NCBI GenBank assembly: GCA_016176335.1
Contig: JACOXI010000003.1
Span: 258,477 to 322,476 of the forward strand
Length of the DNA: 64,000 nucleotides
Direction: 5' to 3'
DNA from: Candidatus Daviesbacteria bacterium
Lineage (GTDB): Bacteria; Patescibacteriota; Microgenomatia; Daviesbacterales; UBA10151
The position numbers and the translations under genes are program-made. Within the stretch, counting starts at the first letter, position 1, and each line of letters opens with the position of its first letter. Below the pieces are notes generated by a model. That model saw only the letters and a program-made list of their open reading frames with translations, was not told the DNA's origin and ran no database searches. Shown here piece by piece: positions 124 to 54,449 of this stretch.

Positions 124-554
124 AATTACACGAACTGAATAAAGTGACAACAAAACCAAGAAAACGTATCGGGCGGGGGCTTGGATCGGGTAAGGGTAAA
201 ACCGGCGGCCGAGGAAGCAAAGGGCAAAAGGCAAGAGGAAAAATCCCGGTAGGATTTACAGGCAGTCTTCCTTTATATAGAAAATTGCCTTTAAGGCGCG
301 GAAAAGGTAATCCCAAAATATCTAGGAAAGTTAAAGTTATTAGTATTTCTGCGCTAAATGTTTTTAAATCAAAAAGTGTTGTTGGTGTTGAGGAATTAAT
401 TAAAGAAAAGATTATAAGTCCAAAAGATGCAAAGAAAGGTGTAAAAATTTTAGGCAATGGTGAAATAAATACTGCTTTGACCGTCAAACTTCCGGTAACT
501 AATTCTGCCCAAAAAAAGATAGAAAGTAAGGGCGGAAAGGTGAACAATGTCTGA
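120..554 (+). CDS. rplO: 50S ribosomal protein L15
   Basis: N-terminus [33 protein letters not shown] is the L15 signature. It sits in the conserved S5-L15-SecY context. Confidence 0.9.
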
Positions 555-3977: not shown

Positions 3978-4362
3978 GAAAATCAAAAAAATTAAAAAAC
4001 AAAAAATAGAGAGAAAGTATAGTAGCGGTAGAGTGTATGTGACAGCTACATTTAACAACACCATAGTTACTTTAACTGATAGTTTGGGAAATACCCTAGC
4101 TTGGGGGACATCCGGCGGAGCTGGATTTAAGGGTGCAAGAAAAGCAACCCCATATGCTGCAATTTCCGCAATGGAAGCGGTTGCTCAAAAAGGCAAAGGT
4201 ATGGGTATATCTTCTGTTGAACTGTATATCAAAGGACCAGGTCCAGGGAGAGATGCCACGATCAAAGCTATCAGAGGTGCCGGGATTAACATCACTATGA
4301 TTGCCGATGTAACACCTATTCCGCACAACGGCCCCAGAGCAAAAAAAAGGAGGAGGGTTTAA
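3970..4362 (+). CDS. rpsK: 30S ribosomal protein S11
   Basis: …GRVYVTATFNNTIVTLTD..GN.LAWGTSG..GFKGARKATPYAA… is canonical S11. Start set at the internal MPKK to avoid overlapping rpsM. Confidence 0.9.
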   Translation: MPKKIKKIKKQKIERKYSSGRVYVTATFNNTIVTLTDSLGNTLAWGTSGGAGFKGARKATPYAAISAMEAVAQKGKGMGISSVELYIKGPGPGRDATIKAIRGAGINITMIADVTPIPHNGPRAKKRRRV

Positions 4363-5892: not shown

Positions 5893-6409
5893 TGTATATG
5901 GTAAAAAATTGGGAAGAAATAAAAACGAAAGAACTGCACTTTTTAAAAGTTTAGTGCGCAGTCTTTTTAGTTATGGAACTATTGAGACTTCCGAATCTAA
6001 AGCCAAGGCTGTAAAAGGGTTAGTTGATAAAATTATCAACCTGGCTAAAAACAAAAGCACCCAGCATTTATTGCAATCATATTTAGTAAACAGAGATTTA
6101 CAACAAAGATTAATTAAAGAAATTGCTCCAAAACTTTCTGATAGGATTTCCGGGTATACTACCATGTTGAGAATCGGTACAAGAGCAGGTGACAGATCAA
6201 CAATGGTAAGAGTGAGTCTGATACATAACGAGCAGTTAAAGCCAATAGAGAAAAAAGAATTAAGAATTAAGAATCGAGAATCAAGCGAAAAGATAGTAAG
6301 GACTGAAGTAAAAAAAACTGTTTCCGAGAAGAAAGGTAGAACTGGACAATCTGTTAGAAAAACTCACGTCACAAAGAAGAGGACTTCAAGATTGTCCAAA
6401 ACAAAATGA
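5882..6409 (+). CDS. rplQ: 50S ribosomal protein L17 with a Lys-rich C-terminal extension
   Basis: …RHNVYGKKLGRNKNERTALFKSLVRSLFSYGTIET…TTMLRIGTRAGD… matches L17. The start is probably GTG/TTG near 5876–5882. About 60 extra basic residues at the C-terminus. Confidence 0.8.
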   Translation: MRHNVYGKKLGRNKNERTALFKSLVRSLFSYGTIETSESKAKAVKGLVDKIINLAKNKSTQHLLQSYLVNRDLQQRLIKEIAPKLSDRISGYTTMLRIGTRAGDRSTMVRVSLIHNEQLKPIEKKELRIKNRESSEKIVRTEVKKTVSEKKGRTGQSVRKTHVTKKRTSRLSKTK

Positions 6410-8768: not shown

Positions 8769-8816
8769 CAATTAATTTTCCACTTGCCAAAATAGGTAAT
8801 TTGTGGTTTAATAATA

Positions 8817-8936
8817 ATGCATCAAGAGTGCCGCCTAAAAGGCGAGCCGGCAACCGAAAAGTTAACGGTGCCAAAGATGATGTGCCCTGCTACATAAGCG
8901 AGGAAAACTTAATCCTCTCTTATGAGAGGTTTTTTT
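8817..8936 (+). promoter_or_regulatory. SAM riboswitch (SAM-I/SAM-IV clan, SAM-IV-like core) with intrinsic terminator, 5' of metK
   Basis: …GCAUCAAGAGUGCCGCC-uaaaa-GGCGAGCCGGCAACC…CGGUGCCaaagAUGAUGUGC… matches the S-box/SAM-IV conserved strings (AUCAAGAG, GAGUGCC, CCGGCAACC, GGUGCC, P1 closing GAUGAUG). A terminator hairpin CCTCTCttatGAGAGG plus T7 follows at 8914–8936. It lies directly upstream of metK. Confidence 0.55.
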
Positions 8937-11156: not shown

Positions 11157-11228
11157 CGGGGATTAGGTCATCGGTAGACCGCTCGGATGGGGTCCGAGAA
11201 GCAGAGAGTTCAATTCTCTCATCCCCGA
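11157..11228 (+). tRNA. tRNA-Pro (anticodon GGG)
   Basis: Hand-folded cloverleaf: acceptor CGGGGAT/ATCCCCG (C1:G72, typical of tRNA-Pro), D-stem GGTC/GACC, anticodon stem CTCGG/CCGAG with loop AT-GGG-GT, T-arm GAGAG-TTCAATT-CTCTC, discriminator A. Confidence 0.8.
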
Positions 11229-15770: not shown

Positions 15771-15843
15771 ATAAATTGATTATATCAAAGGTTTTCTGTA
15801 TTATTGTATGGATACGTGAATCAACTCAAAAGTCAAAACTCAA

Positions 15844-16128
15844 ATGTCAAAACCTAAGATTAACAAGGGTATTCAGATTCCAGATCAAATTTTACGAGAG
15901 TTGTTAACTGTCTCCGAATGGAGAATGTTAAAGAACCGCTTTCAAATAAAGAACCTTTTGGAAGAAGGATTATCCATAAGATCGGTGGCAAGTCAGGTTA
16001 GAGTTGGTACTGATACGGTAGTTAGGGTAGCCAGGATCATTGAAAAAAGTAACTTGAAAATTTTGAAAAAAGTAAAAAAACTGCCATTTAAAACTTCAAC
16101 CCCTTGGATTTTTGGGAAAAGTGAATAA
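15844..16128 (+). CDS. TrpR-like/YerC-YecD family DNA-binding protein
   Basis: …ELLT.SEWRMLKNRFQI…L.EGLS.R.VA..V.VGT.TV.RV is the TrpR/YerC helix-turn-helix signature. The N-terminus is encoded within a heptamer-repeat tract. Confidence 0.55.
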   Translation: MSKPKINKGIQIPDQILRELLTVSEWRMLKNRFQIKNLLEEGLSIRSVASQVRVGTDTVVRVARIIEKSNLKILKKVKKLPFKTSTPWIFGKSE

Positions 16129-16137
16129 GTAGATTTC

Positions 16138-17340
16138 TTAAAAAGGATTTTTTGACATATTTATTAAGAAAAACAATTTGATGAATTCTTTGGGGATGGG
16201 AATGCCAGTTAAAAATGGATAGACTAAAATAAAACTTAAAATCATTAAGCTAAGAAAAATAATAATCATTGGTTGACTCTTTTTTTTGTCTAAACCTAAA
16301 CTTAATTGGTATCCCAATGCCAGAGATAAAAATGGAACTGAAGGACTAAAATAATATATAAACATTAACCTGGGAGAGATAGCCCAAGGTAACCAGAGAA
16401 AGAAAAATCCAGCCAAAACCAGTAATAAACTCTCGGAACGTTTTTTTAGATAATCCCTAACAGTTAACAAAATAGCGATTGTGCCTACCCAAAAAACAAC
16501 AGGATTGCCGAAGGCAAAAATATTGGCAATTTTATCTTTTTGATAGTCTACAAAATACCAAACAGGATAAAGATTAAGCGGCCAGGACCACCAAGAAGAA
16601 GCATAATCATGAGCTGCTTTCAAATGAGTATGATACCACCACTGCTGATTTATAAGTTGCAGAAATTGATTGAGTGTATGACCAGTTAAAAAAAAGGGTA
16701 AATAGATTAGTAAATAGATAACAGGAGGGATAACTAGAAATTTGAATATTTTTATCGGCAGACGGTATTTTATCAGCAGTAAAATAAAAAGACCCAGTAG
16801 ATAAACAGCTGTCCATTTATTCGCCAGCGCCATTCCCAAAAATATTGCAGAAATGCTAAATTTGTTTTTTATGAAAAACACAAAACTTAAAAGACAAAAA
16901 GTAACCAGATAAATATCCAACATGCCGGTTCTTGATTGGACAAAATTTAAGCCATCAATAGAAAAGATCAAGGCTGAAAGTAAAGCTATAGTGTCTTTTT
17001 TGAAAAGTAACACTCCAAGATAATAGACCAGATATACAGATAGCACCCCCATTACTACTCCTGGTAAACGCCAAGCGAGACTGTCAGTATTTTTCAGGAT
17101 AAACATTGACCCGGCCATTATTTCTTGAGCTAGCGGTGGATTGACCCAAGCATAGGCATGACCTTCAGGAGCTTTTGTCCACCATTCCCAAGCTTCCTTA
17201 TTCCCCTTTAGATACTCCTTTGCTGTAAATGGGTAGTACACCTCATCAAAAACATAATTTTTAGGATAATCAATTCTTATAATCCGCAAAAATAGCGAAC
17301 TAACAAGTAATAAAATGAGAAGCAAATTAGTCTTTTTCAT
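16138..17340 (-). CDS. GT39/PMT-like (GT-C fold) membrane glycosyltransferase
   Basis: N-terminal loop YVFDEVYY (the DE motif of PMT/ArnT-type GT-C enzymes) followed by at least 10 predicted TM helices. Confidence 0.55.
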   Translation of the reverse strand: MKKTNLLLILLLVSSLFLRIIRIDYPKNYVFDEVYYPFTAKEYLKGNKEAWEWWTKAPEGHAYAWVNPPLAQEIMAGSMFILKNTDSLAWRLPGVVMGVLSVYLVYYLGVLLFKKDTIALLSALIFSIDGLNFVQSRTGMLDIYLVTFCLLSFVFFIKNKFSISAIFLGMALANKWTAVYLLGLFILLLIKYRLPIKIFKFLVIPPVIYLLIYLPFFLTGHTLNQFLQLINQQWWYHTHLKAAHDYASSWWSWPLNLYPVWYFVDYQKDKIANIFAFGNPVVFWVGTIAILLTVRDYLKKRSESLLLVLAGFFFLWLPWAISPRLMFIYYFSPSVPFLSLALGYQLSLGLDKKKSQPMIIIFLSLMILSFILVYPFLTGIPIPKEFIKLFFLINMSKNPF

Positions 17341-18448
17341 AACACTTTTTTAACTCGTATATTAATCTCAAATAGAGAAAAATAAAATAGATTACTATAA
17401 ATCGAAAAATTATATCCAAAATAAATCTCAATTCATGTGTTAGCCTAAAATAAGAAAACAAAACTGTAGAATTGATTAAGTCAAATGGCCACCAAATGCT
17501 AATAGCAGGAATTTGGAGTAAAGATACAAAAGGCAAAAACCATAGCATGTATTGAGGAGTGTTGACATGGTTTCCTAAAACAGCCGTAAAGATTGTGAGA
17601 TAACAAAGGAGTAAAAAATTTTTATTAGTTAAACTGCTCTTTTTGTAGAAGAACCAACTTATGAACCAGGCGATCAAAAGTAAACTAAAAAGTAGTAAAG
17701 TGCGGTAATGATCAAACCCAAAATAAATTAGATAATAAGATAACGTATTAAAATCATACATTTGAGGATTCTGACTTTGCCAAGTATAAGGAAAAAGCCA
17801 AAATTGAAAATTGTAAAGAGCAAAAGGAAGGTTAATTAGAACTATGGTAGTTATAAAAATTATCAAAGGTAAAATAATAGATTTTTTTCCTAGTTGGTAC
17901 AATATGAATAAAGGTAATAGAAACCCAGGATAAATTTTAACTGTTGTTCCAAGAGCCAGTATTAAAAAGGCCAGTTTTGACTGATTTTTTATCAGTAATA
18001 AAATAGCAAGTAGAGTTAGTAAAGTCGGCAATAAGTCATAGTTAGTAGTTGAAGCAATGAGAAAAGTGGGTGATGCAGTCAGGTAAATAATAAATCTTTT
18101 AGATTTGGAGTTGACAATCGTTGCTAAGCGGTCTAAGCAGACAAAAATTAAAAGTCCTGCCGGTATAAAGATAAAGGCATTTCCCAGAATAAAATTCTGA
18201 TAGGAAAATCCACCCAGAAGCATACTTATAAAATAAGCAAATTTTTGTATCAGTATATAACCTACTGGATACTCAATAGGAAAAAAGAAGCTATGTGCTA
18301 TATATTGACCGTAGTAATGGTAAAAATACCACCAATCCCCCTGATATGTACCTAAAAGATTAACGAACGGCCAAAAATTCAGTCTAATATAGACTGAAAA
18401 TATTAAAACGATTGCAGGGAAGAGCAAATAAAGATTCTTGATGTTCAT
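17327..18448 (-). CDS. polytopic membrane protein, probable GT-C-type glycosyltransferase partner
   Basis: 374 aa, highly hydrophobic and Trp/Tyr-rich. Start set at MNIKNLYLL (ATG at 18446–18448) to avoid overlap with miaA. Abuts the GT39-like gene on the same strand. Confidence 0.45.
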   Translation of the reverse strand: MNIKNLYLLFPAIVLIFSVYIRLNFWPFVNLLGTYQGDWWYFYHYYGQYIAHSFFFPIEYPVGYILIQKFAYFISMLLGGFSYQNFILGNAFIFIPAGLLIFVCLDRLATIVNSKSKRFIIYLTASPTFLIASTTNYDLLPTLLTLLAILLLIKNQSKLAFLILALGTTVKIYPGFLLPLFILYQLGKKSIILPLIIFITTIVLINLPFALYNFQFWLFPYTWQSQNPQMYDFNTLSYYLIYFGFDHYRTLLLFSLLLIAWFISWFFYKKSSLTNKNFLLLCYLTIFTAVLGNHVNTPQYMLWFLPFVSLLQIPAISIWWPFDLINSTVLFSYFRLTHELRFILDIIFRFIVIYFIFLYLRLIYELKKCYEKD

Positions 18449-18473
18449 CTTAGAGTATATAATATTGTACCGT

Positions 18474-19535
18474 ATGAAAAAAATTTTAGTGATTTTGGGT
18501 CCAACTGCAACAAGAAAAACTGACTTGGCTTTATATTTGGCCAAAAAACTTAATGGAGAGTTGGTGGCTTGTGATTCTAGACAAGTATATAAGGGATTAG
18601 ATATTGGCACTGGAAAGTTACCAGCCCCAATGTCAAATCTCAAATGTCCCGTCAAAGACGAGGCTCGCTCGCCTCGCAGCGAAGCAGCGGGCCTCTGGCG
18701 GCAAATGTCAAATGTAGAAAAAAAGAATGGATATTGGAAGATTGATGGGATAAAAATACATATGTATGATGTTGTTTCTCTAAAGATTCAGTTTACTGTG
18801 GCAGATTATGTTAAAGATGCAAATAGGGTAATTAATGATATTGAGAAAAGAGGGAAATTGCCAATTATAGTGGGTGGGACAGGATTGTATGCTAAAGCAT
18901 TAATTGAGGGATTGTCTTCTCTTGAAACACCCGTAAATAAAAAATTAAGGCAGAAATTAAACTTTTTATCTTTAAAACAACTGCAAAAAAAACTGCAAAA
19001 AATTGCATCGGAGAAATGGCAGTCTTTGAATCATTCCGATAAGAATAATCCAAGAAGATTAGTTCGGGCAATTGAGTTAGAAATTAATAAGGGAGATACG
19101 GGAAATCGGGGCAATTGGGGAAATCAGAGATTAGCAAGAGAATTTGATATTTTAAAAATTGGATTAAATGCGTCTAGAGATATATTGTATGAAAAAATTA
19201 ATAAAAGAGTTTATAAGTGGATTGAGGAGGGAATATTAGAAGAAGTTAAAAATTTAAGGAGTAAGGGGATAAGCAAAGATAGGTTTAAAGAATTGGGACT
19301 AGAGTATTCGGTTGCTTTGGAATATTTGGATAAAAAAATTACGCTTGAGGAAATGGTAAATAAGATGCAAACTAAAGTCAGGCAATATGCAAAGAGGCAA
19401 ATTACCTGGTTTAAGAGGGATAAAAATATTTTTTGGTTTGATATATCGGATAAAGATTATCTAATAAAAGTAGAAAACTTCATCACTAAATGGTATCATC
19501 AGTTAAAGATAACAAAATATGCCGCAAAAAATTGA
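18474..19535 (+). CDS. miaA: tRNA dimethylallyltransferase MiaA carrying an in-frame GC-rich palindromic insertion
   Basis: P-loop GPTATRKT, DSRQVYKGLDIGTGK, then about 35 extra residues (…PAPMSNLKCPVKDEARSPRSEAAGLWRQMSNVEKK…) before the conserved …HMYDVV…/…QFTVADYVKDA… block. The rest matches the MiaA family. Confidence 0.85.
   Translation: MKKILVILGPTATRKTDLALYLAKKLNGELVACDSRQVYKGLDIGTGKLPAPMSNLKCPVKDEARSPRSEAAGLWRQMSNVEKKNGYWKIDGIKIHMYDVVSLKIQFTVADYVKDANRVINDIEKRGKLPIIVGGTGLYAKALIEGLSSLETPVNKKLRQKLNFLSLKQLQKKLQKIASEKWQSLNHSDKNNPRRLVRAIELEINKGDTGNRGNWGNQRLAREFDILKIGLNASRDILYEKINKRVYKWIEEGILEEVKNLRSKGISKDRFKELGLEYSVALEYLDKKITLEEMVNKMQTKVRQYAKRQITWFKRDKNIFWFDISDKDYLIKVENFITKWYHQLKITKYAAKN
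18648..18701. repeat. GC-rich palindromic mini-element (copy 1) inserted in-frame in miaA, flanked by direct heptamer repeats
   Basis: CCGTCAAAGACGAGGCTCGCTCGCCTCGCAGCGAAGCAGCGGGCCTCTGGCGG is about 70% GC in an AT-rich gene. It is flanked by AATGTCAAATCTCAAATGT on the left and CAAATGTCAAATGTAG on the right. It shares the GGCTCGCCTCGC / CGTCAAAGACG / GCGAAGC.GCGGGC words with the copies at 22902–22962 and 37600–37629. Confidence 0.6.
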
Positions 19536-20487
19536 TATCTCTTATAAAACAGTAATTTTTATTGCGATCTTCGTTATCACTCTCTGGGCAATTTATTTAA
19601 TACGAGATCTGCTGGTTATTCTATTTGTCTCAATCATTTTTATGTCAGCCTTAAATCCCCTGGTAAGTTTCTTTGTAAAAGCTAAACTACCGAAAGTTTT
19701 GAGTATTGGTATAACCTACCTTATTATAATCGCTGTTGGCGCAGCAGCGTTTGCCGCCATTTTACAACCGCTTATTGAAGAAAGCAGACGGCTGATCTTG
19801 ACTTTGCCGTATCTGTCGGGGCAATTTTTTAACATCGCTAACATAAATGAATCGGTCTTTCAGTCCGAACTAACCAATCTTTCAAAAAACGCATTCACTA
19901 TAACGCTTGCTATATTTGATAATTTATTGGCGATAGTATTTCTTTTGGTGATCACATTCTACATGCTTTTGGAACGCGATAATCTCAAACAGCGGCTGGC
20001 GTCTCTATTTATTGGAAAAGAAGATAGAGTAAAGAGGTTAATCGTCAGAATTGAGGAGAAATTGGGAAGTTGGTTAAGAGGACAACTAGTTTTAACTTTG
20101 ATTATTGGTCTCCTATCTTATATAGGATTAACTATTTTAAATATCCCTTACGCCCTCCCACTAGCTGTTCTGGCAGGAATATTGGAGGTGGTACCTGTAA
20201 TTGGGCCTATTATTTCTGCTATTCCGGCGATACTCATTGCCATCACCGTATCTCCCTTTTTAGGACTGGGTGTTGCGGCAATGTATGTTGTGATTCAACA
20301 ATCGGAAAATCATTTAATTGTTCCTCAAGTTATGAAACGGGCAGTAGGACTGAATCCTTTAATGGTGATTTTGGCAATTGCTATCGGATCGAGACTGCTG
20401 GGTTTCGCAGGAGCATTGCTCGCTGTTCCATTTACGGTTGTATTGCAGATTATAGTTGCGGAAATTATGGAAGATAGAAAAACTTAG
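19519..20487 (+). CDS. AI-2E family transporter (PerM/YhhT, UPF0118)
   Basis: 322 aa, about 8 TM helices, characteristic length and conserved C-terminal GLxGxxLAVP motif. Confidence 0.7.
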   Translation: MPQKIDISYKTVIFIAIFVITLWAIYLIRDLLVILFVSIIFMSALNPLVSFFVKAKLPKVLSIGITYLIIIAVGAAAFAAILQPLIEESRRLILTLPYLSGQFFNIANINESVFQSELTNLSKNAFTITLAIFDNLLAIVFLLVITFYMLLERDNLKQRLASLFIGKEDRVKRLIVRIEEKLGSWLRGQLVLTLIIGLLSYIGLTILNIPYALPLAVLAGILEVVPVIGPIISAIPAILIAITVSPFLGLGVAAMYVVIQQSENHLIVPQVMKRAVGLNPLMVILAIAIGSRLLGFAGALLAVPFTVVLQIIVAEIMEDRKT

Positions 20488-20492
20488 TGCCT

Positions 20493-20877
20493 AGGAAGCT
20501 AGTAAGCCAGATTCTGTTTTCCCGCTTCGACGAATCGAGGCGAGTAGATGATCATTTATCTAGAATGTGATTTTTAATAGTCACATCTTCCCGGTTTTAC
20601 GGGATGCTCCTGACTCCGGTTATTGAACGAGCTACTCAACCGATTCTAGGATTGCAGCAGGGAGGATTATCCCTCTGTACCAGAAGGTACAGAGAACCCG
20701 GTAGCTTGGTCGTTTCATTCGGCGCCACCCGATTCGTCACTGTTACTCTATACTGGGTCTTGCGACCCCCCGCTTGTGCGGGGCACCTTGCTCTATGCTG
20801 TCTGGACTTTCCTGTCGCCCGCAACTGCGTAGCTGTTGGCGACCGATCATCCTTCTTCCTAGGCTTCCATATTTTAC
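20493..20877 (-). ncRNA. rnpB: RNase P RNA, bacterial type A
   Basis: The minus strand reads 5'-GGAAGCCUAGGAAG…GGCGACAGGAAAGUCCAGACAGCAUAGAGCAAGGUGCC…ACAGUGA…CCGAAUGAAACGACC…ACAGAAUCUGGCUUACUAGCUUCC-3'. It contains the universally conserved P4 halves (AGGAAAGUCC…; …ACAGAAnCnGGCUUA), the GNRA/P-loop blocks and P1 pairing between the ends. The 385-nt GC-rich block sits in an AT-rich genome. The ORFs 20604–20903(+) and 20636–20899(-) lying inside it are spurious. Confidence 0.75.
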
Positions 20878-22750: not shown

Positions 22751-23176
22751 TCAGAATATATTAATATTCAAAACATTATTTTTCATTAGAAAATAAAGGA
22801 TGATTTGTAAACCCAATGCAGTACCTGCAAAGATAGAAATCTTCAGCAGATCTTGACGAAGGTAGGTGGTGTCATCGATAGTGACTTCCACTTTTGTGGT
22901 AGACGGCTCGCCTCGCTGTCGCCCTTGGCGAACCTCGTCAAAGACGGGCGAAGCGGGCAGACTGTAGATGTTAGACTGATCATTCCTGCCATAGAATTGC
23001 TGGCGAAGGATCTTGAGGCGTTTTTCCAAATCTGACTGATGTTTGCTCTGGTGTAGGGCCATGTTAGGTTCAGCTACGCACACTTGAGCCTTAGAGAACA
23101 TACAATTGAGTTCTCGCAGGATCAAATCGATTAGATTTGAGCCTATCACGCACAGTGTACGCTTGTCAAGCACCAA
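22751..23176 (-). CDS. hypothetical C-terminally membrane-anchored protein containing GC-rich element copy 2 (coding status uncertain)
   Basis: 141-codon ORF with a TTG/GTG start and C-terminal hydrophobic helix ISIFAGTALGLQIILYFLM. It carries the in-frame GC-rich repeat at 22902–22962. No recognisable family. Confidence 0.3.
   Translation of the reverse strand: MVLDKRTLCVIGSNLIDLILRELNCMFSKAQVCVAEPNMALHQSKHQSDLEKRLKILRQQFYGRNDQSNIYSLPASPVFDEVRQGRQRGEPSTTKVEVTIDDTTYLRQDLLKISIFAGTALGLQIILYFLMKNNVLNINIF
22902..22962. repeat. GC-rich palindromic mini-element (copy 2, permuted relative to the miaA copy)
   Basis: GACGGCTCGCCTCGCTGTCGCCCTTGGCGAACCTCGTCAAAGACGGGCGAAGCGGGCAGAC. It shares GGCTCGCCTCGC, CGTCAAAGACG and GCGAAGCGGGC with the copy at 18648–18701, in a different order. 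Confidence 0.5.
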
Positions 23177-36768: not shown

Positions 36769-38151
36769 ATGCAAGCATATATGGATCGCACATTAATTTT
36801 GGATTGTAAAGAGAAGGTTGGAAAAGAGGTGAAAATTTGTGGATGGGTTGTAACTGGCCGAGATCACGGAAAGCTCGTTTTTCTGGATGTCTTAGACAGA
36901 AGTGGAGTTATTCAAGTATTAGCATCTGGGGCTGACAAAAATGTTCCAGAGCTAAGACCCCAGGATGTAGTTTGTGTTACAGGAACTGTCAATAAAAGAC
37001 CACAAAATCTGGTTAATAAAAATATCCCTACGGGTGAAATAGAAATTTCAGCAGAAACTATTGAGGTTTTATCAAAAGCTCAAGAATTGCCTTTTGATAT
37101 GGGAGGTAAAGATTTGGATTTGCAGTTGCCAACTCTTTTAGATTTCCGATCCTTAACTTTACGTCACCCTAAGCTTAAGTCTATTTTCAAAGTTCAGGCA
37201 AGTCTGCTTGAGGGATTTAGGCAAGCAGCTTTAGATTTAGACTGTACAGAGATTGTAGTACCAACAATTGTGGCAGGAGCAACAGAAGGAGGGGCAGAAG
37301 TTTTTAAGATAGATTATTTCGGCCGTAAAGCCTACCTTTCCCAAAGTCCCCAGCTTTACAAACAAATGTTAGTGCCTGTATATGAGCGGGTCTTTACTAT
37401 TGCTAAGGCTTACCGTGCCGAACCCTCGGTTACCACCAGACATTTAACCGAAAGCACACAACTGGATATTGAAATTGGTTTTATAGAATTTGAAGACTTG
37501 CTGGATTTCCTGGAGGCAGTGGCGGTTAAAATGTTAACTGTTGCGGAGGAACAGTGCGGAGATATTTTATCTGAATTTGGTGTTGAAAAAATTGCTTTTG
37601 GCTCGCCTCGCTCCGCGGGCGGAGCGGGCAAAATTCCCAGACTGACCTTAAGAGAAGCTCAAGAAATAATCTTTAAAGAGTTTGGCAGAGATAATAGGAA
37701 TGAGAAAGATTTGACCCCGCAAGATGAGATAGATTTGTGTCAATGGTCGAAAGATAAACATCAATCGGATTTTGTCACCATCACTCATTTTCCAACTTCG
37801 GCAAAGCCATTTTACACCATGCCTAATCCAAAAAATCCAGAGTATAGTTTAAGTTATGACCTTCTTTTTAGAGGGGTAGAAATTTTAAGTGGTAGTCAGC
37901 GTATTAATGATTATCAGCAATTGCTCGATAGCATAAAAGGTCGGGGTATGAATCCTGATAATTTTCAGTTGTATCTTCAGGCTTTCCAGTATGGTATGCC
38001 CCCGGAGGGAGGATTTTCCTTCGGACTTGAGAGGGTTACGATGCATGTTCTAAATTTATCAAATATTAGGCAAGCCAGTCTTTTTCCAAGGGATATGGAA
38101 AGAGTTGATATCAGATTATCTCAAAACTCAAATCGCAAATCTCAAAACTAA
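36769..38151 (+). CDS. aspS: aspartyl-tRNA synthetase (archaeal/bacterial short type) with an in-frame 30-nt GC palindrome insertion
   Basis: OB-fold N-domain and class II motifs (FRAE…, …GGFSFGLERV…). A 10-aa GSPRSAGGAG insert is encoded by element copy 3. Confidence 0.9.
   Translation: MQAYMDRTLILDCKEKVGKEVKICGWVVTGRDHGKLVFLDVLDRSGVIQVLASGADKNVPELRPQDVVCVTGTVNKRPQNLVNKNIPTGEIEISAETIEVLSKAQELPFDMGGKDLDLQLPTLLDFRSLTLRHPKLKSIFKVQASLLEGFRQAALDLDCTEIVVPTIVAGATEGGAEVFKIDYFGRKAYLSQSPQLYKQMLVPVYERVFTIAKAYRAEPSVTTRHLTESTQLDIEIGFIEFEDLLDFLEAVAVKMLTVAEEQCGDILSEFGVEKIAFGSPRSAGGAGKIPRLTLREAQEIIFKEFGRDNRNEKDLTPQDEIDLCQWSKDKHQSDFVTITHFPTSAKPFYTMPNPKNPEYSLSYDLLFRGVEILSGSQRINDYQQLLDSIKGRGMNPDNFQLYLQAFQYGMPPEGGFSFGLERVTMHVLNLSNIRQASLFPRDMERVDIRLSQNSNRKSQN
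37600..37629. repeat. GC-rich palindromic mini-element (copy 3) in-frame in aspS
   Basis: GGCTCGCCTCGCTCCGCGGGCGGAGCGGGC has a near-perfect palindromic centre GCTCCGCGGGCGGAGC. It shares GGCTCGCCTCGC…GCGGGC with copies 1 and 2 and is flanked by AAAATT on both sides. Confidence 0.55.
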
Positions 38152-38280
38152 AACTTTAAATCTTAAAACTTTTTAAAGATTTTACCTTTAAGATGTAGAT
38201 TTGACCCATTCGGCTTCGTTCAGGGTCATCCTGAGCATTGTCGAAGGATGACATCTAAGATATAAGATTTGAGATTGTTA
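38119..38280. repeat. composite element: heptamer tandem-repeat arrays in inverted orientation flanking a GC-rich palindromic core (38203–38255)
   Basis: Left: TCTCAAA ACTCAAA TCGCAAA TCTCAAA ACTAAAA CTTTAAA TCTTAAA, encoding the aspS C-terminus …SQNSNRKSQN*. Core: GACCCATTCGGCTTCGTTCAGGGTCATCCTGAGCATTGTCGAAGGATGACATC. Right: CTAAGATATAAGATTTGAGATTG, the reverse complement of CAATCTCAAATCTTATATCTTAG. Confidence 0.5.
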
Positions 38281-40244: not shown

Positions 40245-40301
40245 AGTTTTTGTTGCGAGCCTCTACTGTTATTATACAGGATCGAAAGGTATAATATGTT
40301 T

Positions 40302-41627
40302 ATGAACGTGAGAGTCAGGATTGCCCCATCCCCAACAGGATCACCACATATCGGGACTGTTTGGCAAGCCCTTTTTGATTTTGTTTTTGCCAAAAAAAAA
40401 CATGGCAAATTTATTTTGCGGATTGAAGATACAGACAGGGCAAGATATGTTGCCGAAAGCGAACAGGAAATTGTCGAAACATTTAAATGGTTAGGTTTTG
40501 AGTTTGATGAAGGTCCCAATATTGGGGGGGATTTTGGTCCGTATAGACAATCGGAAAGGCTTGAGATATACGAAAAGTTTGCCAGGGAGTTGGTGAAAAA
40601 GGGTACGGCTTTTGCAGATGAAGGAGCAGTCAGATTTAAGACAAAAAAGACAGGAGTAACCTCTTGGCACGATTTGGTGGGAAGTAAGCTGATAACTTTT
40701 GAAAATTCCACACAGGATGATTTTGTGATTTTAAAATCAGACGGATATCCCACATATAACTTTGCCAATGTTGTGGATGACCATTTAATGGAGATAACCC
40801 ATGTGATCAGAGGGAATGAATTTATCTCATCTACCCCAAAGCATTTGATGATATATGAATCCTTTGGTTGGCAGCCTCCTCAATTTGCCCATCTGCCGGT
40901 TTTGGTTGGGGCCGATCGGAGTAAATTATCTAAAAGACACGGGGCAAAATCCGCACTGGAGTTTAAAAAAGAAGGATACTTGAAAGAGGCGATCCTAAAT
41001 TTTCTGGCTCTTTTAGGGTGGACACACCCGGAAGGCAGGGAAATTTTCACTATAGATGAGATGATAGGTCTTTTTAATTTTAAAGATTTTAACTTGGCAT
41101 CGGCTTTTTTTGATACTACAAAGCTTGACTGGTTGAATGGGGAATATATTAGGAAATCTCAAAACTCAAAACTCAAAAGTCAAATTTTGGAATATTTAAA
41201 AGATATCTCAGGTGGGGCAATCGAGCATCCCACAGAGCAGGAAGTTGAGAAAGTAATACCGCTTATTAAAGAGCGGATTAAGAAATTATCAGATTTTATT
41301 CCTCTGACAGATTTTCTTTGGGAAAAGGCTGAATATGATTTACAAATATTTCAAAAATTAAATATTAAAGATCAAAAAGAAATTCTAACCAAAATTATAG
41401 AAGAGCTGAAAAACATGGAAAGACCTTGGAAGGCAGATATTTTTGAGGCAACCTTTAGGAAACTGGCAGAGGATTTGGGATTATCAGCTGCACAAGTTTT
41501 TCAACTAATCAGAGTGGCAGTGTCAGGCCAATTAGTTACTCCGCCTCTTTTTGAAAGCATCCAGATATTGGGAGAAAATGAGACTGTCAAAAGAGTTAAT
41601 GAAGTTGCAAACATTATAGGTTCGTGA
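40302..41627 (+). CDS. gltX: glutamyl-tRNA synthetase
   Basis: MNVRVRIAPSPTGSPHIGTVWQALFD (HIGH motif) and KLSKR (KMSKS motif). Contains an in-frame heptamer-repeat tract at 41157–41186 encoding …RKSQNSKLKSQI…. Confidence 0.9.
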   Translation: MNVRVRIAPSPTGSPHIGTVWQALFDFVFAKKKHGKFILRIEDTDRARYVAESEQEIVETFKWLGFEFDEGPNIGGDFGPYRQSERLEIYEKFARELVKKGTAFADEGAVRFKTKKTGVTSWHDLVGSKLITFENSTQDDFVILKSDGYPTYNFANVVDDHLMEITHVIRGNEFISSTPKHLMIYESFGWQPPQFAHLPVLVGADRSKLSKRHGAKSALEFKKEGYLKEAILNFLALLGWTHPEGREIFTIDEMIGLFNFKDFNLASAFFDTTKLDWLNGEYIRKSQNSKLKSQILEYLKDISGGAIEHPTEQEVEKVIPLIKERIKKLSDFIPLTDFLWEKAEYDLQIFQKLNIKDQKEILTKIIEELKNMERPWKADIFEATFRKLAEDLGLSAAQVFQLIRVAVSGQLVTPPLFESIQILGENETVKRVNEVANIIGS

Positions 41628-42633: not shown

Positions 42634-42704
42634 TGCGGGATGGTGAAATGGTATCACAACTGGCTCTGAACCAGTTATTCTAGGTTCAAATCCTAGTCCC
42701 GCAG
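42634..42704 (+). tRNA. tRNA-Gln (anticodon CTG)
   Basis: Hand-folded: acceptor TGCGGGA/TCCCGCA (U1:A72, typical of bacterial tRNA-Gln), D-stem GTGA/TCAC, anticodon stem ACTGG/CCAGT with loop CT-CTG-AA, T-arm CTAGG-TTCAAAT-CCTAG, discriminator G. A -10 TATAAT lies 7 nt upstream. Confidence 0.8.
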
Positions 42705-46597: not shown

Positions 46598-47824
46598 TTA
46601 AACCTCTCTTAGATGGTGAGACAGTTTTTGTTTTTTGGTGGCAAGATATTGTTTATTATTTTTATTAGGTTTTATTTCCAGTGGCACAGTTTGTAAAACA
46701 TCTATACCAAAACTGGAAAGTTGCTGCTCTTTATCCGGATTATTAGTTAAAAGATATATTTTTGAAATACCTAAATCTTTTAACATATCTGCTGCAATTT
46801 TGTAGCCGCGAGCATCAATCGGTAAGCCTAATTTGGTATTTGCTTCAACAGTATCAAGACCCAGATCTTGCAGTGCATAGGCTTTTATCTTATTTGTTAA
46901 TCCAATTCCTCTTCCTTCCTGATTTAGATAGAGAATTACACCCTGCCCCTTTTTTTGAATCAGCTTCATGCTCTGGTGTAGTTGCGCTCCACAATCACAC
47001 CTAAGTGACAGTAGAGTATCACCTGTTAGACATTGAGAGTGTACTCTGGTCAGTATTGGGTTTGTAATTTTGCCTAAAAGCAGTACCACATGCTCACTTT
47101 GATCAGCCAGAGATTTGTAAATGAATAATTTAAATGTGCCATATTTAGTAGGCAAGAGCGAATAGGCTGTTTTTACCAGCTCTTCTTTCTCTTTTGTTTC
47201 TCCCAAGGGGTGTTTTTTAAGATATTTAACCAGTCCCTCAATTGCCACAATTTTAATATGTAATTTTTGGGCCAGTTTTTTAAGATCAGCTAATCTGGCC
47301 ATCCTGCCATCACTTCCTATAATTTCACAAATCACTCCTGCCGGGTTAAAACCCGCAAGTTGAGAAAGATCTACTGCTGCTTCGGTATGACCGGCTCTTT
47401 TTAACACCCCGCCCGTTTTGGCCACCAGACCAAAAACATGACCTGGTTTTATCAAATCTTCCGGTTTTGATCTGGGGTTTGCTAAAATTTTAATGGTCTT
47501 TAGCCGATCAAAAGCAGATATCCCTGTTGAAACATTGTTTTTAGCATTGACTGAAACAGTAAAGTTTACTTTGGTTTTTTCGGTATTTTCCCAAGGTGGA
47601 GCCATCAACGGTAAGTGTAGACGGTGGGCTTGAGATTGGGTAATGGCACAACAAATAAGACCTCCCCCCTGGCGAATCATGGTGATTAGATGCTGAAGTT
47701 TTAGCTGATCAGCCGGTATATAAAAATCAGCCTCATTCTCACGCTTAGGATGATCTACTAAAATTAACATATTGCCTTTTTTAATCTGTTCTAAAGCCAC
47801 AGATATGCTTGAGAAATTACTCAT
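46598..47824 (-). CDS. ribBA: bifunctional 3,4-dihydroxy-2-butanone-4-phosphate synthase / GTP cyclohydrolase II
   Basis: RibB N-domain (…DHPKRENEADF…) and RibA C-domain with the zinc motif CDCGAQL. Confidence 0.9.
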   Translation of the reverse strand: MSNFSSISVALEQIKKGNMLILVDHPKRENEADFYIPADQLKLQHLITMIRQGGGLICCAITQSQAHRLHLPLMAPPWENTEKTKVNFTVSVNAKNNVSTGISAFDRLKTIKILANPRSKPEDLIKPGHVFGLVAKTGGVLKRAGHTEAAVDLSQLAGFNPAGVICEIIGSDGRMARLADLKKLAQKLHIKIVAIEGLVKYLKKHPLGETKEKEELVKTAYSLLPTKYGTFKLFIYKSLADQSEHVVLLLGKITNPILTRVHSQCLTGDTLLSLRCDCGAQLHQSMKLIQKKGQGVILYLNQEGRGIGLTNKIKAYALQDLGLDTVEANTKLGLPIDARGYKIAADMLKDLGISKIYLLTNNPDKEQQLSSFGIDVLQTVPLEIKPNKNNKQYLATKKQKLSHHLREV

Positions 47825-48264
47825 AGTTTTGACATCAGTCTGATCATTTCTAAAGCAGTCAAAGCTGCTTCCACTCCCTTATTTTCTTTTTTACGAGTTG
47901 CCCGCCCTATTGCATCTTTGAGATCATAAACTGCCAATACCTCAAAAATAACAGGAATTTCATATTGTAAGGATACTTCCATACAACCCCTGGCGCACTC
48001 CATCCCAATTTGCTCAAAATGGTAAGTTTTGCCTTTGACTATTGCCCCAAAGGCAATAATGGCGTCATATTTTCTTTTTTTGGCCAAAATTTTAGCCAGT
48101 AAAGGTATTTCTAAAGATCCGGGTACTCTAAAGATGTCTACCTGATCCCTACCTATCCCTTTTTTGGAAAGTGTAGTAAGGCAATTTTTCTGCAAGCTTT
48201 TCGTTACTTCTTCTCTGAAGCTACTACCTACAATGGCGATTTTAATATCTTTAATTTTTTTCAT
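47821..48264 (-). CDS. ribH: 6,7-dimethyl-8-ribityllumazine synthase
   Basis: 147 aa, lumazine synthase fold residues (…IAIVGSSFREEV…, …VPGSLEIP…). Confidence 0.9.
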   Translation of the reverse strand: MKKIKDIKIAIVGSSFREEVTKSLQKNCLTTLSKKGIGRDQVDIFRVPGSLEIPLLAKILAKKRKYDAIIAFGAIVKGKTYHFEQIGMECARGCMEVSLQYEIPVIFEVLAVYDLKDAIGRATRKKENKGVEAALTALEMIRLMSKL

Positions 48265-54436: not shown

Positions 54437-54449
54437 TTCAAAATTCAAA

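What the first reader, a model, noticed from the sequence alone, without database searches (positions are those of the whole stretch)
18629..18716. In-frame GC-rich palindromic element inserted into miaA, flanked by direct heptamer repeats (RPE-like)
A roughly 54-bp, about 70%-GC, self-complementary block sits inside an otherwise AT-rich essential gene. It adds about 35 residues between the conserved DIGTGK and HMYDVV blocks of MiaA without breaking the frame. It is bracketed by AATGTCAAATCTCAAATGT and CAAATGTCAAATGTAG, a duplicated target plus heptamer array. This mirrors Rickettsia palindromic elements that colonise ORFs in-frame. Such a phenomenon is not, to my knowledge, described for this kind of genome.
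Basis: seen in the sequence. Interest (0 to 1): 0.75.

Follow-up and report, generated by a model that had tools for sequence, protein, structure and literature searches.

The report
Tiny nested hairpin elements inside miaA
A 54-base GC-rich hairpin block inside the essential tRNA-modification gene miaA of a Candidatus Daviesbacteria (CPR) genome is a real in-frame insertion of two very small repeated DNA modules, one nested in the other; these modules also sit in other housekeeping genes and the RNase P RNA gene, and I found no paper describing them.

Summary
Window 18648-18701 is a 54-nt, 72 % GC block, the GC maximum of a 38 % GC window. It lies in frame in miaA (18474-19535) and is bracketed by CAAATNT heptamers.

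An orthologue has the same heptamer array uninterrupted. The block is therefore an exact +54 nt insertion with no target duplication, and it falls in a loop that AlphaFold2 models with pLDDT < 50.

The block is composite:
- **Shell:** the 30-nt module CCCGTCAAAGACGAGGCTCGCCTCTGGCGG. In 20 metagenomic loci it sits at the T|C unit junction of A-rich heptamer microsatellites, always in the sense orientation.
- **Core:** a 24-nt palindrome of the family GGCTCGCCTCGC…GCGAAGCGGGC, nested in the shell.

The core family has three more copies in the window, all inside genes: aspartyl-tRNA synthetase (AspRS), a small membrane protein and the RNase P RNA gene. Near-identical copies occur in many low-GC uncultivated bacteria, 75 % of them in open reading frames.

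It behaves like Rickettsia palindromic elements (RPE) or cyanobacterial small dispersed repeats (SDR), but it is not shown to belong to any known family. The mobilising enzyme is unknown. I rate it a new variant of a known kind. Ten literature searches found no description.

The parts
18474..19535 (+). miaA (tRNA dimethylallyltransferase), 353 aa, the host gene
   Evidence: Pfam IPPT, E = 1.6e-59. 100 % identical to an NCBI Candidatus Daviesbacteria MiaA.
18627..18647 (+). Left part of the heptamer microsatellite: CCAATGT CAAATCT CAAATGT
   Evidence: Orthologue L001 has the same five-unit array uninterrupted. The units match the flank consensus CAAATNT of the shell family.
18648..18668 (+). 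5' part of the 30-nt shell module: CCCGTCAAAGACGAGGCTCGC
   Evidence: The exact 19-mer within it is found in 41 metagenome loci. About 28 of those hits, 20 distinct loci, carry the full shell flanked by heptamers.
18669..18692 (+). 24-nt nested core palindrome: TCGCCTCGCAGCGAAGCAGCGGGC
   Evidence: Covariance model R1 of the core family hits 18662-18692 at 17.2 bits, E = 0.0027. L147 carries the same 54-nt shell-plus-core composite at another locus, with one base different. The exact boundary is ambiguous by a few bases because CTCGC is repeated.
18693..18701 (+). 3' part of the shell module: CTCTGGCGG
   Evidence: The shell reads CCCGTCAAAGACGAGGCTCGC|CTCTGGCGG in 18 loci.
18702..18715 (+). 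Right part of the heptamer microsatellite: CAAATGT CAAATGT
20521..20544 (-). Core-family copy (CTCGCCTCGATTCGTCGAAGCGGG, UUCG loop) inserted in the RNase P RNA gene
   Evidence: R1 gives 18 bits, E = 0.0015. It lies inside the Rfam RF00010 match 20487-20862, 100.8 bits. Relatives L003, L129 and L001 read ATCATCT-NNN-AACAGAATC without these 24 nt.
22905..22958 (+). Core-family composite: two arms plus two inner hairpins, including CCTCGTCAAAGACGGG. It lies in frame in a small membrane-protein gene on the minus strand (22751-23062).
   Evidence: 12.6 bits, E = 0.11. The host protein is conserved in L001 but is 10 aa shorter there and lacks the GC block. L067 has the same architecture.
37600..37629 (+). 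30-nt core-family copy GGCTCGCCTCGCTCCGCGGGCGGAGCGGGC, in frame in AspRS (36769-38151), peptide GSPRSAGGAG
   Evidence: R1 gives 37.3 bits, E = 3e-10. Orthologues carry 0, 21, 30 or 51 nt at this exact site.

Best explanation
The miaA block is selfish or neutral repeated DNA. It consists of two ultra-small hairpin modules, one nested in the other, sitting in a permissive surface loop of MiaA and translated as 18 extra, probably disordered, residues.

Shown:
1. The MiaA loop after DIGTGK already held an A-rich heptamer microsatellite, (CAAATNT)5.
2. The 30-nt shell module CCCGTCAAAGACGAGGCTCGCCTCTGGCGG is intercalated at a T|C unit junction of that array. It has a fixed orientation relative to the array and adds or removes no heptamer unit.
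3. The shell carries a 24-nt palindrome of the family GGCTCGCCTCGC…GCGAAGCGGGC in its GGCTCGC|CTC segment. The same 54-nt composite occurs at another locus elsewhere.
4. Copies lying inside ORFs have lengths that are multiples of three and carry no stop codon, which indicates that selection filters what is retained.

Inferred:
1. The modules are copied from existing copies by a trans-acting enzyme that has not been identified.
2. The absence of target duplication, the short asymmetric target (CAAA on one strand, TTTG on the other) and the fixed orientation fit single-strand HUH/Y1 (IS200/IS605- or RAYT-type) transposition better than a cut-and-paste MITE.
3. The sense-only orientation inside genes follows from the heptamer arrays being A-rich on the coding strand.
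4. The presence of the same modules in many phyla implies horizontal spread.
For: **The block is an insertion.**
- Orthologue L001 reads …ATGTCAAATCTCAAATCT|CAAATGTCAAATGTA. The window has the same array with 54 nt at the bar.
- A second, independent case is phosphoglycerate kinase (PGK). L175 is empty and L139 carries the 30-nt shell, with equal heptamer counts.

**The shell family.**
- There are 20 distinct loci with flank consensus (CAAATNT)2|E|(CAAATNT)2.
- Within a locus the left and right 7-mers match at 5.6 of 7 positions, against 3.6 of 7 between loci.
- Period 7 is the best period in 20 of 22 joined flanks, against 1.5 % of 20,000 random positions.
- All 14 in-ORF copies are in the sense orientation, and all three reading frames are used.
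- The hosts are housekeeping genes: LeuRS, LepA, PGK, TopA, GyrB and L1.

**The core family.**
- The window holds four copies, with covariance-model E-values of 3e-10, 0.0015, 0.0027 and 0.11. All four lie in genes.
- The RNase P RNA copy is a clean 24-nt insertion.
- The AspRS site shows a series of 0, 21, 30 and 51 nt.
The centre of the 33-nt unit, which the search pattern did not constrain, is conserved.
- 63 of 84 low-GC copies lie in open frames of at least 100 codons.
- Spans that are multiples of three lie in ORFs in 61 of 76 cases, against 2 of 8 for other spans (Fisher p = 0.0026).

**Permissive site.**
- AlphaFold2 gives pLDDT < 50 for residues 38-78.
- Other Daviesbacteria miaA genes carry different palindromes in the same loop.
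Against: - No transposase was identified. Ten unannotated window ORFs show none; the rest of the genome was not examined.
- The 30-nt shell alone folds no better than shuffles (z = -1.2 and -1.7), so 'hairpin element' is weak for the shell by itself.
- The core family shows no orientation bias relative to local GC skew (44 versus 40). That gives no positive support for replication-strand-specific single-strand transposition.
- Eighteen loci, about 13 of them distinct, carry the perfect 30-mer. This could reflect selection on the sequence rather than recent copying.
- The miaA insertion itself is seen in a single assembly (the P0001 cluster has one member).
- Taxonomic labels of metagenome-assembled contigs may be partly wrong, so the breadth across phyla is uncertain.
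Confidence: 0.7

Rival explanations
1. The shell is a miniature cut-and-paste transposon that makes a 7-bp target-site duplication. On this view the heptamer arrays are by-products: footprints of repeated insertion and excision, or reiterated gap-fill synthesis. Arrays without a hairpin, as in L001, L175 and elsewhere in the window, would be old footprints.
For: - The 7-mers immediately left and right of the shell are identical or nearly so within each locus: 7 of 7 matches in 6 of 20 loci, mean 5.6 of 7.
- Almost every shell copy sits in an array.
- Arrays are unusually frequent in this window: 9-10 period-7 arrays by Tandem Repeats Finder, and period 7 is the only period of five or more over-represented against shuffles.
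- Two PGK orthologues carry the shell at the same loop with different heptamers.
Against: - In both filled-versus-empty comparisons (miaA and PGK) the number of heptamer units is the same, so the indel is exactly 54 or 30 nt.
- 30 + 7 nt would break the reading frame, yet all 14 in-ORF copies are in frame.
- Heptanucleotide repeats are reported as the commonest long simple-sequence repeat class in prokaryotes independently of any element (Mrázek et al., as cited in PMC4679880).
Confidence: 0.15
2. The block, or the shell, is a functional module kept by selection. It could be an mRNA hairpin that controls translation speed or mRNA stability, a protein-binding DNA site, or a useful flexible linker in the protein.
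For: - The 30-mer is perfectly conserved in 18 loci, about 13 of them distinct.
- Orientation in ORFs is strictly sense (14 of 14).
- The core keeps the same two non-Watson-Crick positions (T·G and C·A) wherever it occurs, though these arm positions were fixed by the search pattern.
Against: - All three reading frames are used, giving three unrelated peptides (PVKDEARLWR, PSKTRLASGG, SRQRRGSPLAA), so it is not a protein module.
- It occurs in unrelated genes, in intergenic DNA and in an RNA gene.
- It is absent from close orthologues of the same essential genes.
- The core family occurs in both orientations relative to the host ORF (30 same strand, 33 opposite).
- Rfam has no match at gathering thresholds.
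Confidence: 0.08
3. The block is an assembly or sequencing artefact, such as a chimeric join or a hairpin artefact of amplification.
For: The miaA-specific insertion is seen in one assembly only.
Against: - The insertion is exact, in frame, and has intact flanks.
- The same 54-nt composite occurs in an unrelated JGI contig, L147.
- Orthologous AspRS insertions are seen in independent ENA and Logan assemblies.
- The elements appear in assemblies from many studies and sources.
- Multiples of three are enriched in ORFs, which artefacts would not show.
Confidence: 0.02
4. The segment is an ancestral part of MiaA in this lineage, a lineage-specific loop rather than an insertion.
For: The loop after DIGTGK is long and variable in many Daviesbacteria.
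Against: - None of the 27 aligned orthologues shares the peptide.
- DNA of an orthologue shows the uninterrupted heptamer array.
- The same DNA modules occur in unrelated genes.
Confidence: 0.01

Closest known systems
Rickettsia palindromic elements (RPE; Ogata et al. 2000, Science, recalled from memory; mentioned in PMC1779305 found)
   Same: Repeated palindromic DNA that sits in frame inside essential protein-coding genes and also in RNA genes. It lies in permissive loops, is translated, has no known transposase, and occurs in a small, AT-rich genome of a host-dependent bacterium.
   Different: - RPEs are about 100-150 bp (from memory); the modules here are 24-33 nt, or 54 nt when nested.
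- RPE families are confined to Rickettsia and relatives, whereas these modules are found in many phyla.
- No sequence comparison with RPE consensus sequences was possible here.
- RPEs are not known to target heptamer microsatellites.
Small dispersed repeats (SDR) of Nostocaceae: 'very small mobile repeated elements' (Elhai et al. 2008, Genome Res 18:1484). The paper is not held; its content was taken from citing papers PMC4390886 and PMC5861425.
   Same: Very small (21-27 nt, from memory) repeated modules regarded as mobile. [quoted passage not shown] That parallels the precise intercalation of the shell at the T|C junction of heptamer repeats.
   Different: - SDRs were reported only in Nostocaceae; quotes that no SDR-like repeat was found outside them.
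- The sequences differ.
- Here most copies are inside ORFs of housekeeping genes, and the host lineages are CPR and other uncultivated low-GC bacteria.
REP / BIME / REPIN elements mobilised by RAYT (Y1 HUH) transposases (PMC3733652, PMC3116915)
   Same: 20-40 nt imperfect palindromes in many copies, with no target-site duplication and conserved asymmetries in the stem. A trans-acting single-strand transposase is the plausible mechanism.
   Different: - REPs are by definition extragenic, whereas all four window copies lie in genes.
- The GTAG or CGTC tag at the foot of the hairpin is not at the ends of the core (GGCTCGCC…).
- No RAYT gene was found or tested.
- No REPIN doublet organisation was seen.
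GC clusters, double-hairpin elements and repetitive hairpin-forming elements of fungal and sponge mitochondria (PMC2800124; yeast var1 GC cluster and Allomyces double-hairpin elements recalled from memory)
   Same: Short (about 30-60 nt) GC-rich hairpin modules scattered in an AT-rich compact genome, found in intergenic DNA, rRNA genes and in frame in protein genes. They show nested and modular architectures and have no known enzyme.
   Different: They are organellar and unrelated in sequence. No heptamer-array targeting has been described for them.
Heptanucleotide simple-sequence repeats and STRR sequences of cyanobacteria (PMC4679880; STRR within cyanobacterial RNase P RNA genes, Vioque 1997, from memory, with the term found in PMC2858038)
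   Same: Tandem 7-nt repeats are the dominant long simple-sequence repeat class in many prokaryotes, and they can lie inside an RNase P RNA gene.
   Different: - Those repeats are mostly intergenic and not associated with an intercalated GC hairpin.
- Here the arrays lie inside ORFs although 7 is not a multiple of 3.
- What interrupts RNase P RNA here is the palindrome, not a heptamer array.

Membership tests
Rickettsia palindromic elements (RPE) | Length about 100-150 bp | tested here: not met
   The modules are 24, 30, 33 and 54 nt. The RPE size is from memory.
Rickettsia palindromic elements (RPE) | Multi-copy palindromic DNA inserted in frame in ORFs and in RNA genes | tested here: met
Rickettsia palindromic elements (RPE) | Sequence homology to an RPE-1…RPE-10 consensus | not testable with these tools
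   No RPE consensus sequences were available. Rfam at gathering threshold gave no hit at the elements.
REP / REPIN (RAYT-associated) | 20-40 nt imperfect palindrome in high copy number | tested here: met
   The core unit is 30-33 nt with conserved T·G and C·A positions. There are four copies in 64 kb.
REP / REPIN (RAYT-associated) | Extragenic location | tested here: not met
   All four window copies are inside genes. 75 % of 84 low-GC copies lie in open frames of at least 100 codons.
REP / REPIN (RAYT-associated) | Conserved GTAG or CGTC tetranucleotide at one end of the palindrome (PMC3733652) | tested here: not met
   The core ends are GGCTCGCC… and …GCGGGC. CGTC occurs only inside the shell's first mini-hairpin.
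REP / REPIN (RAYT-associated) | A RAYT (Y1 HUH transposase) gene in the genome, flanked by REPs | not tested
   Only 10 unannotated window ORFs were scanned against Pfam, with no transposase. The remaining roughly 390 kb of the source contig was not available.
MITE (cut-and-paste, IS-derived) | Target-site duplication flanking the element | tested here: not met
   The filled and empty miaA and PGK sites have equal heptamer counts. The RNase P insertion is an exact 24 nt with no duplication.
MITE (cut-and-paste, IS-derived) | Terminal inverted repeats matching those of a parent IS | not tested
   The shell termini CCCGTCA and TGGCGG are only about 6 nt and imperfectly inverted. No parent IS was sought.
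Small dispersed repeats (SDR, Nostocaceae) | Very small (21-27 nt) dispersed repeat inserted precisely in a fixed position of another short iterated motif | tested here: met
   The shell sits at the T|C junction of CAAATNT repeats in 16-18 of 20 loci. The SDR property is taken from PMC4390886.
Small dispersed repeats (SDR, Nostocaceae) | Sequence identity to SDR1-8 and occurrence in Nostocaceae | not testable with these tools
   The Elhai 2008 paper is not held. The hosts here are Patescibacteria and other phyla.
IS200/IS605-type single-strand transposition (mechanistic class) | No target duplication, insertion next to a short specific sequence, and fixed orientation relative to that sequence | tested here: met
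   The right flank begins CAAA (TTTG on the other strand) in most loci, and the array orientation relative to the shell is constant.
IS200/IS605-type single-strand transposition (mechanistic class) | Orientation bias relative to the replication strand, and presence of a Y1 TnpA | tested here: inconclusive
   The shell shows positive local GC skew in 16 of 22 loci. The core shows 44 versus 40. No TnpA was identified.

The most novel reading that the evidence does not exclude
These are a previously unrecognised class of ultra-small (24-33 nt) mobile hairpin modules shared by many phyla of uncultivated low-GC bacteria. They integrate without target duplication at structured or repetitive DNA: unit junctions of A-rich heptamer microsatellites, and the centres of other palindromes. 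The enzyme is still unknown, possibly of the HUH single-strand type. Together with the heptamer arrays, the modules would be a major source of the loop insertions that lengthen housekeeping proteins and RNase P RNA in CPR bacteria.
Probability: 0.35. Interest if true: 0.85.

Novelty: new variant of a known kind. Interest (0 to 1): 0.72.

Why it matters
CPR (Patescibacteria) genomes are regarded as highly streamlined. Here even MiaA, aspartyl-tRNA synthetase and RNase P RNA in the window, and LeuRS, PGK, gyrase B and topoisomerase I on related contigs, are invaded by tiny repeated hairpin modules and heptamer microsatellites.

If this is general, it would:
- explain part of the odd loop insertions and length variation of CPR proteins;
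- warn annotators and phylogeneticists about non-homologous, GC-rich, low-complexity segments in alignments;
- offer natural markers of permissive sites in essential enzymes;
- point to an unknown insertion mechanism that works on modules only 24-33 nt long and appears to cross phylum boundaries.

Tried and rejected
- **Inverted-repeat finder.** With a 6-nt seed it did not report the GC block as an inverted repeat because the stem is imperfect. Folding was needed instead.
- **My first reading.** 'Pre-existing array, so the heptamers are irrelevant' was wrong in emphasis. The metagenome scan showed that the heptamers are a constant companion of the shell. I then considered a 7-bp target duplication with stutter, and rejected it as the main model on unit counts and frame arithmetic.
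- **Replication-strand orientation bias of the core family.** None was found: 44 versus 40.
- **Viral carriage.** Only 2 hits in 2.9 million viral contigs.
- **Translational bypass (take-off and landing codons in the flanking repeats).** Rejected. Reading straight through gives the conserved downstream VEKKNGYWKIDG, whereas hops to the downstream TGT codons run into stops (from the sequence).
- **−1 frameshift signal (slippery heptamer plus hairpin).** Rejected, because CAAATGT is not of the X XXY YYZ type.
- **Known RNA family.** There was no Rfam hit at the elements with gathering thresholds. The only relevant RNA hit is RNase P RNA, which hosts a copy.
- **Protein-level module.** Rejected, because all three frames are used.
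- **Literature.** Ten searches, by sequence strings, translated peptides and keywords, found no description. Elhai et al. 2008 could not be read.
- **Transposase search.** Limited to 10 window ORFs, all negative.
Full report
**1. The observation**

The window is AT-rich, with mean GC 0.38 in 50-nt windows. Positions 18648-18701 read CCCGTCAAAGACGAGGCTCGCTCGCCTCGCAGCGAAGCAGCGGGCCTCTGGCGG. That is 54 nt at 72 % GC, the highest 50-nt GC value in the whole window.

The block is preceded by CCAATGT CAAATCT CAAATGT (18627-18647) and followed by CAAATGT CAAATGT (18702-18715).

It folds as a long imperfect hairpin. The RNA of 18620-18725 gives -32.6 kcal/mol, z = -2.8. The 54-mer as DNA gives -15.2 kcal/mol, z = -2.3.

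The host ORF 18474-19535 is MiaA (Pfam IPPT, E = 1.6e-59). It is 100 % identical to an NCBI protein of 'Candidatus Daviesbacteria bacterium' on a 456,706-bp contig. The block is in frame and has no stop codon.

**2. It is an insertion**

In an alignment of 28 Daviesbacteria and Patescibacteria MiaA proteins (A1), no orthologue shares the peptide PVKDEARSPRSEAAGLWR.

Orthologue P0006 (63 % identity) reads GKMSNLKSQMSNVQKGNGFWKIDG where the window reads …MSNLKC[PVKDEARSPRSEAAGLWR]QMSNVEKKNGYWKIDG.

At the DNA level (A2):
- L001 reads GGAAAAATGTCAAATCTCAAATCT|CAAATGTCAAATGTACAA.
- The window has the same five-unit heptamer array with exactly 54 nt at the bar.

So the block adds 18 residues (P59-R76), not about 35. 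The heptamers are not a duplicated target, because the unit count is the same with and without the block.

AlphaFold2 on A1 gives mean pLDDT 76 but below 50 for residues 38-78. The insert therefore lies in a loop predicted with low confidence and probably disordered, just before a modelled β-hairpin (81-96).

**3. The block is composite and belongs to two repeated families**

*(a) The core family.* GC-island and motif scans found related blocks at 22905-22958 and 37600-37629. They share TCGCCTCGC…GCGGGC on the plus strand. I scanned one genome per species with the pattern GGCTCGCCTCGCN{5,35}GCGRAGCGGGC.

In low-GC genomes most hits are a 33-nt unit GGCTCGCCTCGC-TGAAGCTCYG-GCGAAGCGGGC, or a 30-nt variant.
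- The hosts include many CPR lineages: Daviesbacteria, Moranbacteria, Saccharibacteria, Gottesmanbacteria, Kuenenbacteria, Levybacteria and Microgenomates.
- The hosts also include contigs labelled Nitrospira, Planctomycetota, Ignavibacteria, Omnitrophota, Elusimicrobiota, Bdellovibrionales and low-GC 'Gammaproteobacteria'.
- The ten central positions, which the pattern left free, are conserved: T13 in 52 of 58, G17 in 54, C18 in 56, G22 in 52.
- The unit is often nested inside other palindromes.

A covariance model built from 58 such units (R1) was run on the window with filters off:

| Window position | Strand | Bits | E-value |
|---|---|---|---|
| 37600-37629 | + | 37.3 | 3e-10 |
| 20521-20544 | − | 18.0 | 0.0015 |
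| 18662-18692 | + | 17.2 | 0.0027 |
| 22911-22953 | + | 12.6 | 0.11 |

*(b) The shell family.* I scanned JGI metagenomes with the miaA-specific 19-mer CGTCAAAGACGAGGCTCGC. It gave 41 loci. About 28 of the low-GC hits are a 30-nt unit CCCGTCAAAGACGAGGCTCGCCTCTGGCGG.

That unit is the miaA block minus the central 24 nt TCGCCTCGCAGCGAAGCAGCGGGC. Locus L147 carries the same 54-nt composite, with one base different, in another gene.

The miaA block is therefore the shell (18648-18668 plus 18693-18701) with a nested core (18669-18692).

**4. The heptamers**

In 20 distinct shell loci the flanks have the consensus (CAAATNT)2|shell|(CAAATNT)2. C occurs in 15-18 of 20 loci at the first unit position and T in 16 of 20 at the last.
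- Within a locus the left and right 7-mers match at 5.6 of 7 positions. Between loci they match at 3.6 of 7.
- Period 7 is the best period of the joined flanks in 20 of 22 cases. In 20,000 random positions of the same contigs, period 7 with comparable strength occurs 1.5 % of the time.

A second filled-versus-empty pair supports the miaA result. The PGK of L139 carries the shell, while its 65 %-identical orthologue L175 has an uninterrupted (CAAAAGG)n array with the same number of units.

A 30-nt element making a 7-bp duplication would add 37 nt and break the frame, yet all 14 in-ORF shell copies are in frame.

I conclude that the shell is intercalated at the T|C unit junction of pre-existing A-rich heptamer microsatellites. 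It does so in a fixed orientation and without duplication.

Such arrays are frequent in the window itself. Tandem Repeats Finder reports nine or ten period-7 arrays. By a strict count, period 7 is the only period of five or more that is over-represented: 3 observed against 0 in shuffles.

All arrays are A-rich on the plus strand, and most lie inside ORFs. Examples are GluRS at 41154-41184 and the C-terminal tail of AspRS at 38120-38155.

Heptanucleotide repeats are reported as the commonest long simple-sequence repeat class in prokaryotes (Mrázek et al., as summarised in PMC4679880).

**5. Behaviour in genes**

*Shell.* All 14 in-ORF copies are in the sense orientation, and all three frames occur (PVKDEARLWR, PSKTRLASGG, SRQRRGSPLAA).
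- This rules out a conserved protein module.
- The orientation is explained by the fixed orientation of the shell relative to the array, which is itself A-rich on the coding strand.
- The hosts are housekeeping genes: LeuRS, LepA, PGK (twice), topoisomerase I, gyrase B, ribosomal protein L1 and membrane glycosyltransferases (identified by eye from the translations).

*Core.*
- 63 of 84 low-GC copies lie in open frames of at least 100 codons, against 89 % of random positions. Both orientations occur: 30 on the same strand as the ORF and 33 on the opposite strand.
- Spans that are multiples of three lie in ORFs in 61 of 76 cases, against 2 of 8 for other spans (Fisher p = 0.0026). This is the signature of selection for frame preservation, and therefore of translation.
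- There is no bias relative to local GC skew: 44 versus 40.
- Only 2 hits occur in 2.9 million viral contigs.

**6. The other window copies are also insertions**

*AspRS (36769-38151).* The site IAF|GKIPRL carries different amounts of DNA in different orthologues:
- 0 nt in L130;
- 21 nt (GGCTCGCCTCGCGAAGCGGGC) in L131;
- 30 nt in the window;
- 51 nt in L132 and L133, which is the 30-nt form with a further 21-nt hairpin at its exact centre.

The distribution is patchy among orthologues that are 72-87 % identical. The centre of the palindrome is thus itself a site of nesting or deletion.

*RNase P RNA.* Rfam RF00010 matches 20487-20862 on the minus strand at 100.8 bits. The copy at 20521-20544 is a clean 24-nt hairpin with a UUCG loop, between the 3' strand of P2 and the AACAGAA of P4. 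Three relatives (L003, L129, L001) lack it. They read ATCATCT-NNN-AACAGAATC, where NNN is AAA, CAA or TGT.

*Small membrane protein (22751-23062, minus strand).* The orthologue in L001 is 47 % identical but 10 aa shorter and lacks the GC block in its variable linker.

All four core copies in the 64-kb window are therefore inside genes.

**7. Hot spots**

Other Daviesbacteria miaA genes carry unrelated palindromes in the same loop. These belong to a family with GTCATYC…GRATGAC termini in L126, L127 and L128. Others carry different heptamer arrays, such as (AATTAAG)n in L002 and L129.

The PGK loop after DVPL shows the same mixture of arrays and hairpins among Microgenomates. These loops are permissive sites that are hit repeatedly.

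**8. Mechanism**

*Shown:* precise insertion without duplication at three kinds of site; nesting; multi-copy families; a frame filter; a loop location.

*Inferred:* copying by a trans-acting enzyme. Three features resemble IS200/IS605- or RAYT-type single-strand transposition more than cut-and-paste MITEs:
- no target duplication;
- a short asymmetric target (CAAA, or TTTG on the other strand);
- a fixed orientation.

However, no enzyme was identified; ten unannotated ORFs in the window were negative. The shell alone does not fold better than shuffles.

The main rival is a 7-bp duplication with the arrays as footprints. It remains possible at roughly 15 %.

**9. Comparison with known systems**

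Behaviourally this matches Rickettsia palindromic elements, because it lies in frame in essential genes and in an RNA gene. It also matches the small dispersed repeats of Nostocaceae, which are very small modules inserted precisely within another iterated motif.

It fails the defining features of three classes:
- REP, which is extragenic and carries a GTAG or CGTC tag;
- MITEs, which have target-site duplications;
- RPE, on size.

Mitochondrial GC clusters and hairpin elements are a further analogue, in AT-rich organelle genomes (PMC2800124).

Ten literature searches, including searches for the sequences and their translated peptides, returned no description of these elements. Most subscription-journal papers are not in the library.

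**10. Verdict**

- The interpretation 'RPE-like in-frame palindromic element' is right in spirit. It needs three corrections: the block is a nested composite, the heptamers are the target rather than a duplication, and the block adds 18 residues rather than about 35.
- Novelty: a new variant of a known kind.
- The caveats are listed under evidence against: a single assembly for the miaA insertion, uncertain taxonomic labels for the cross-phylum distribution, and an unidentified mobilising mechanism.

Noticed in passing
window 20487-20862 (minus strand): A bacterial type A RNase P RNA gene lies in the gap between the AI-2E transporter gene and the comM-like gene. It scores right at Rfam's gathering cut-off (98.7-100.8 bits against 100), so the default scan of the whole window missed it. 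It carries a 24-nt palindromic insertion at 20521-20544.
   Followed up: yes
window 217-243, 3979-4007, 6255-6285, 15826-15852, 38120-38155, 41154-41184, 41353-41378, 54435-54484, 58238-58275: There are nine A-rich tandem heptamer arrays, with units such as CTCAAAA, AAGAATT and AATTCAA. Most lie inside ORFs although 7 is not a multiple of 3. Period 7 is the only tandem-repeat period of five or more over-represented against shuffles. The same AAGAATT-type array (peptide LRIKNxE) occurs in two window proteins and in the MiaA loop of relatives L002 and L129.
   Followed up: partly
window 38120-38155: The C-terminal tail of AspRS (…RLSQNSNRKSQN) is encoded by a heptamer array that runs across the stop codon. 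Some orthologues have similar tails (SQSSKVKSQK) and most have none.
   Followed up: partly
window 41154-41184: A heptamer array (AAAACTC ×4.4, peptide KSQNSKLKSQ) sits between the catalytic and anticodon-binding domains of a glutamyl/glutaminyl-tRNA synthetase (ORF 40296-41627).
   Followed up: partly
window 19100-19125 (miaA residues about 209-217): A second variable loop of MiaA (GDTGNRGNWGNQ) is encoded by a 9-nt tandem repeat GGGAAATCG ×2.9 and has pLDDT < 50. In orthologue P0099 the same loop carries a nested palindromic insertion (…WIPVYARLAGASAKRAGMT…) that includes a core-family unit.
   Followed up: partly
loci L126, L127, L128 (miaA orthologues); proteins P0017, P0033, P0035, P0045: A different palindromic element family, with termini GTCATYC…GRATGAC, occupies the same MiaA loop in other Daviesbacteria. 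It translates to peptides such as VILRAKPEG…ILRFAQND and RHPELDSGS…IPKQVRND.
   Followed up: partly
AspRS orthologues P0136, P0149, P0162, P0163, P0176, P0181, P0185, P0209 (alignment A5, columns 70-115): The N-terminal domain of AspRS has another insertion hot spot in relatives (VHLEGVKAHLRG, PTSEVR, HLGGAPARGG…). The peptides look like translated GC-rich palindromes. The window's AspRS is empty at this site.
   Followed up: no
locus L133 (AspRS orthologue P0233); also P0149: A perfect 21-nt palindrome CTGCCTGCCGGCAGGCAGGTC (peptide LPAGRQV) is inserted two codons downstream of the core-family insertion. This gives two independent hairpin insertions within 10 codons.
   Followed up: partly
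window 48891-49073 (−), 8814-8920 (+), 11157-11228 (+), 42634-42704 (+): Rfam hits at gathering score: an FMN riboswitch upstream of riboflavin genes (lumazine synthase and lumazine-binding ORFs at 47821-48847), a SAM-I/IV riboswitch, and two tRNAs.
   Followed up: no
window 17327-18655 (minus strand): The mechanical ORF of the upstream membrane-protein gene, which lies on the opposite strand, runs 180 nt into miaA and through the element. This happens because the antisense of the GC block and heptamers has no stop codon in that frame, so the true start is probably further downstream. Automatic gene callers may mis-set starts near such elements.
   Followed up: no
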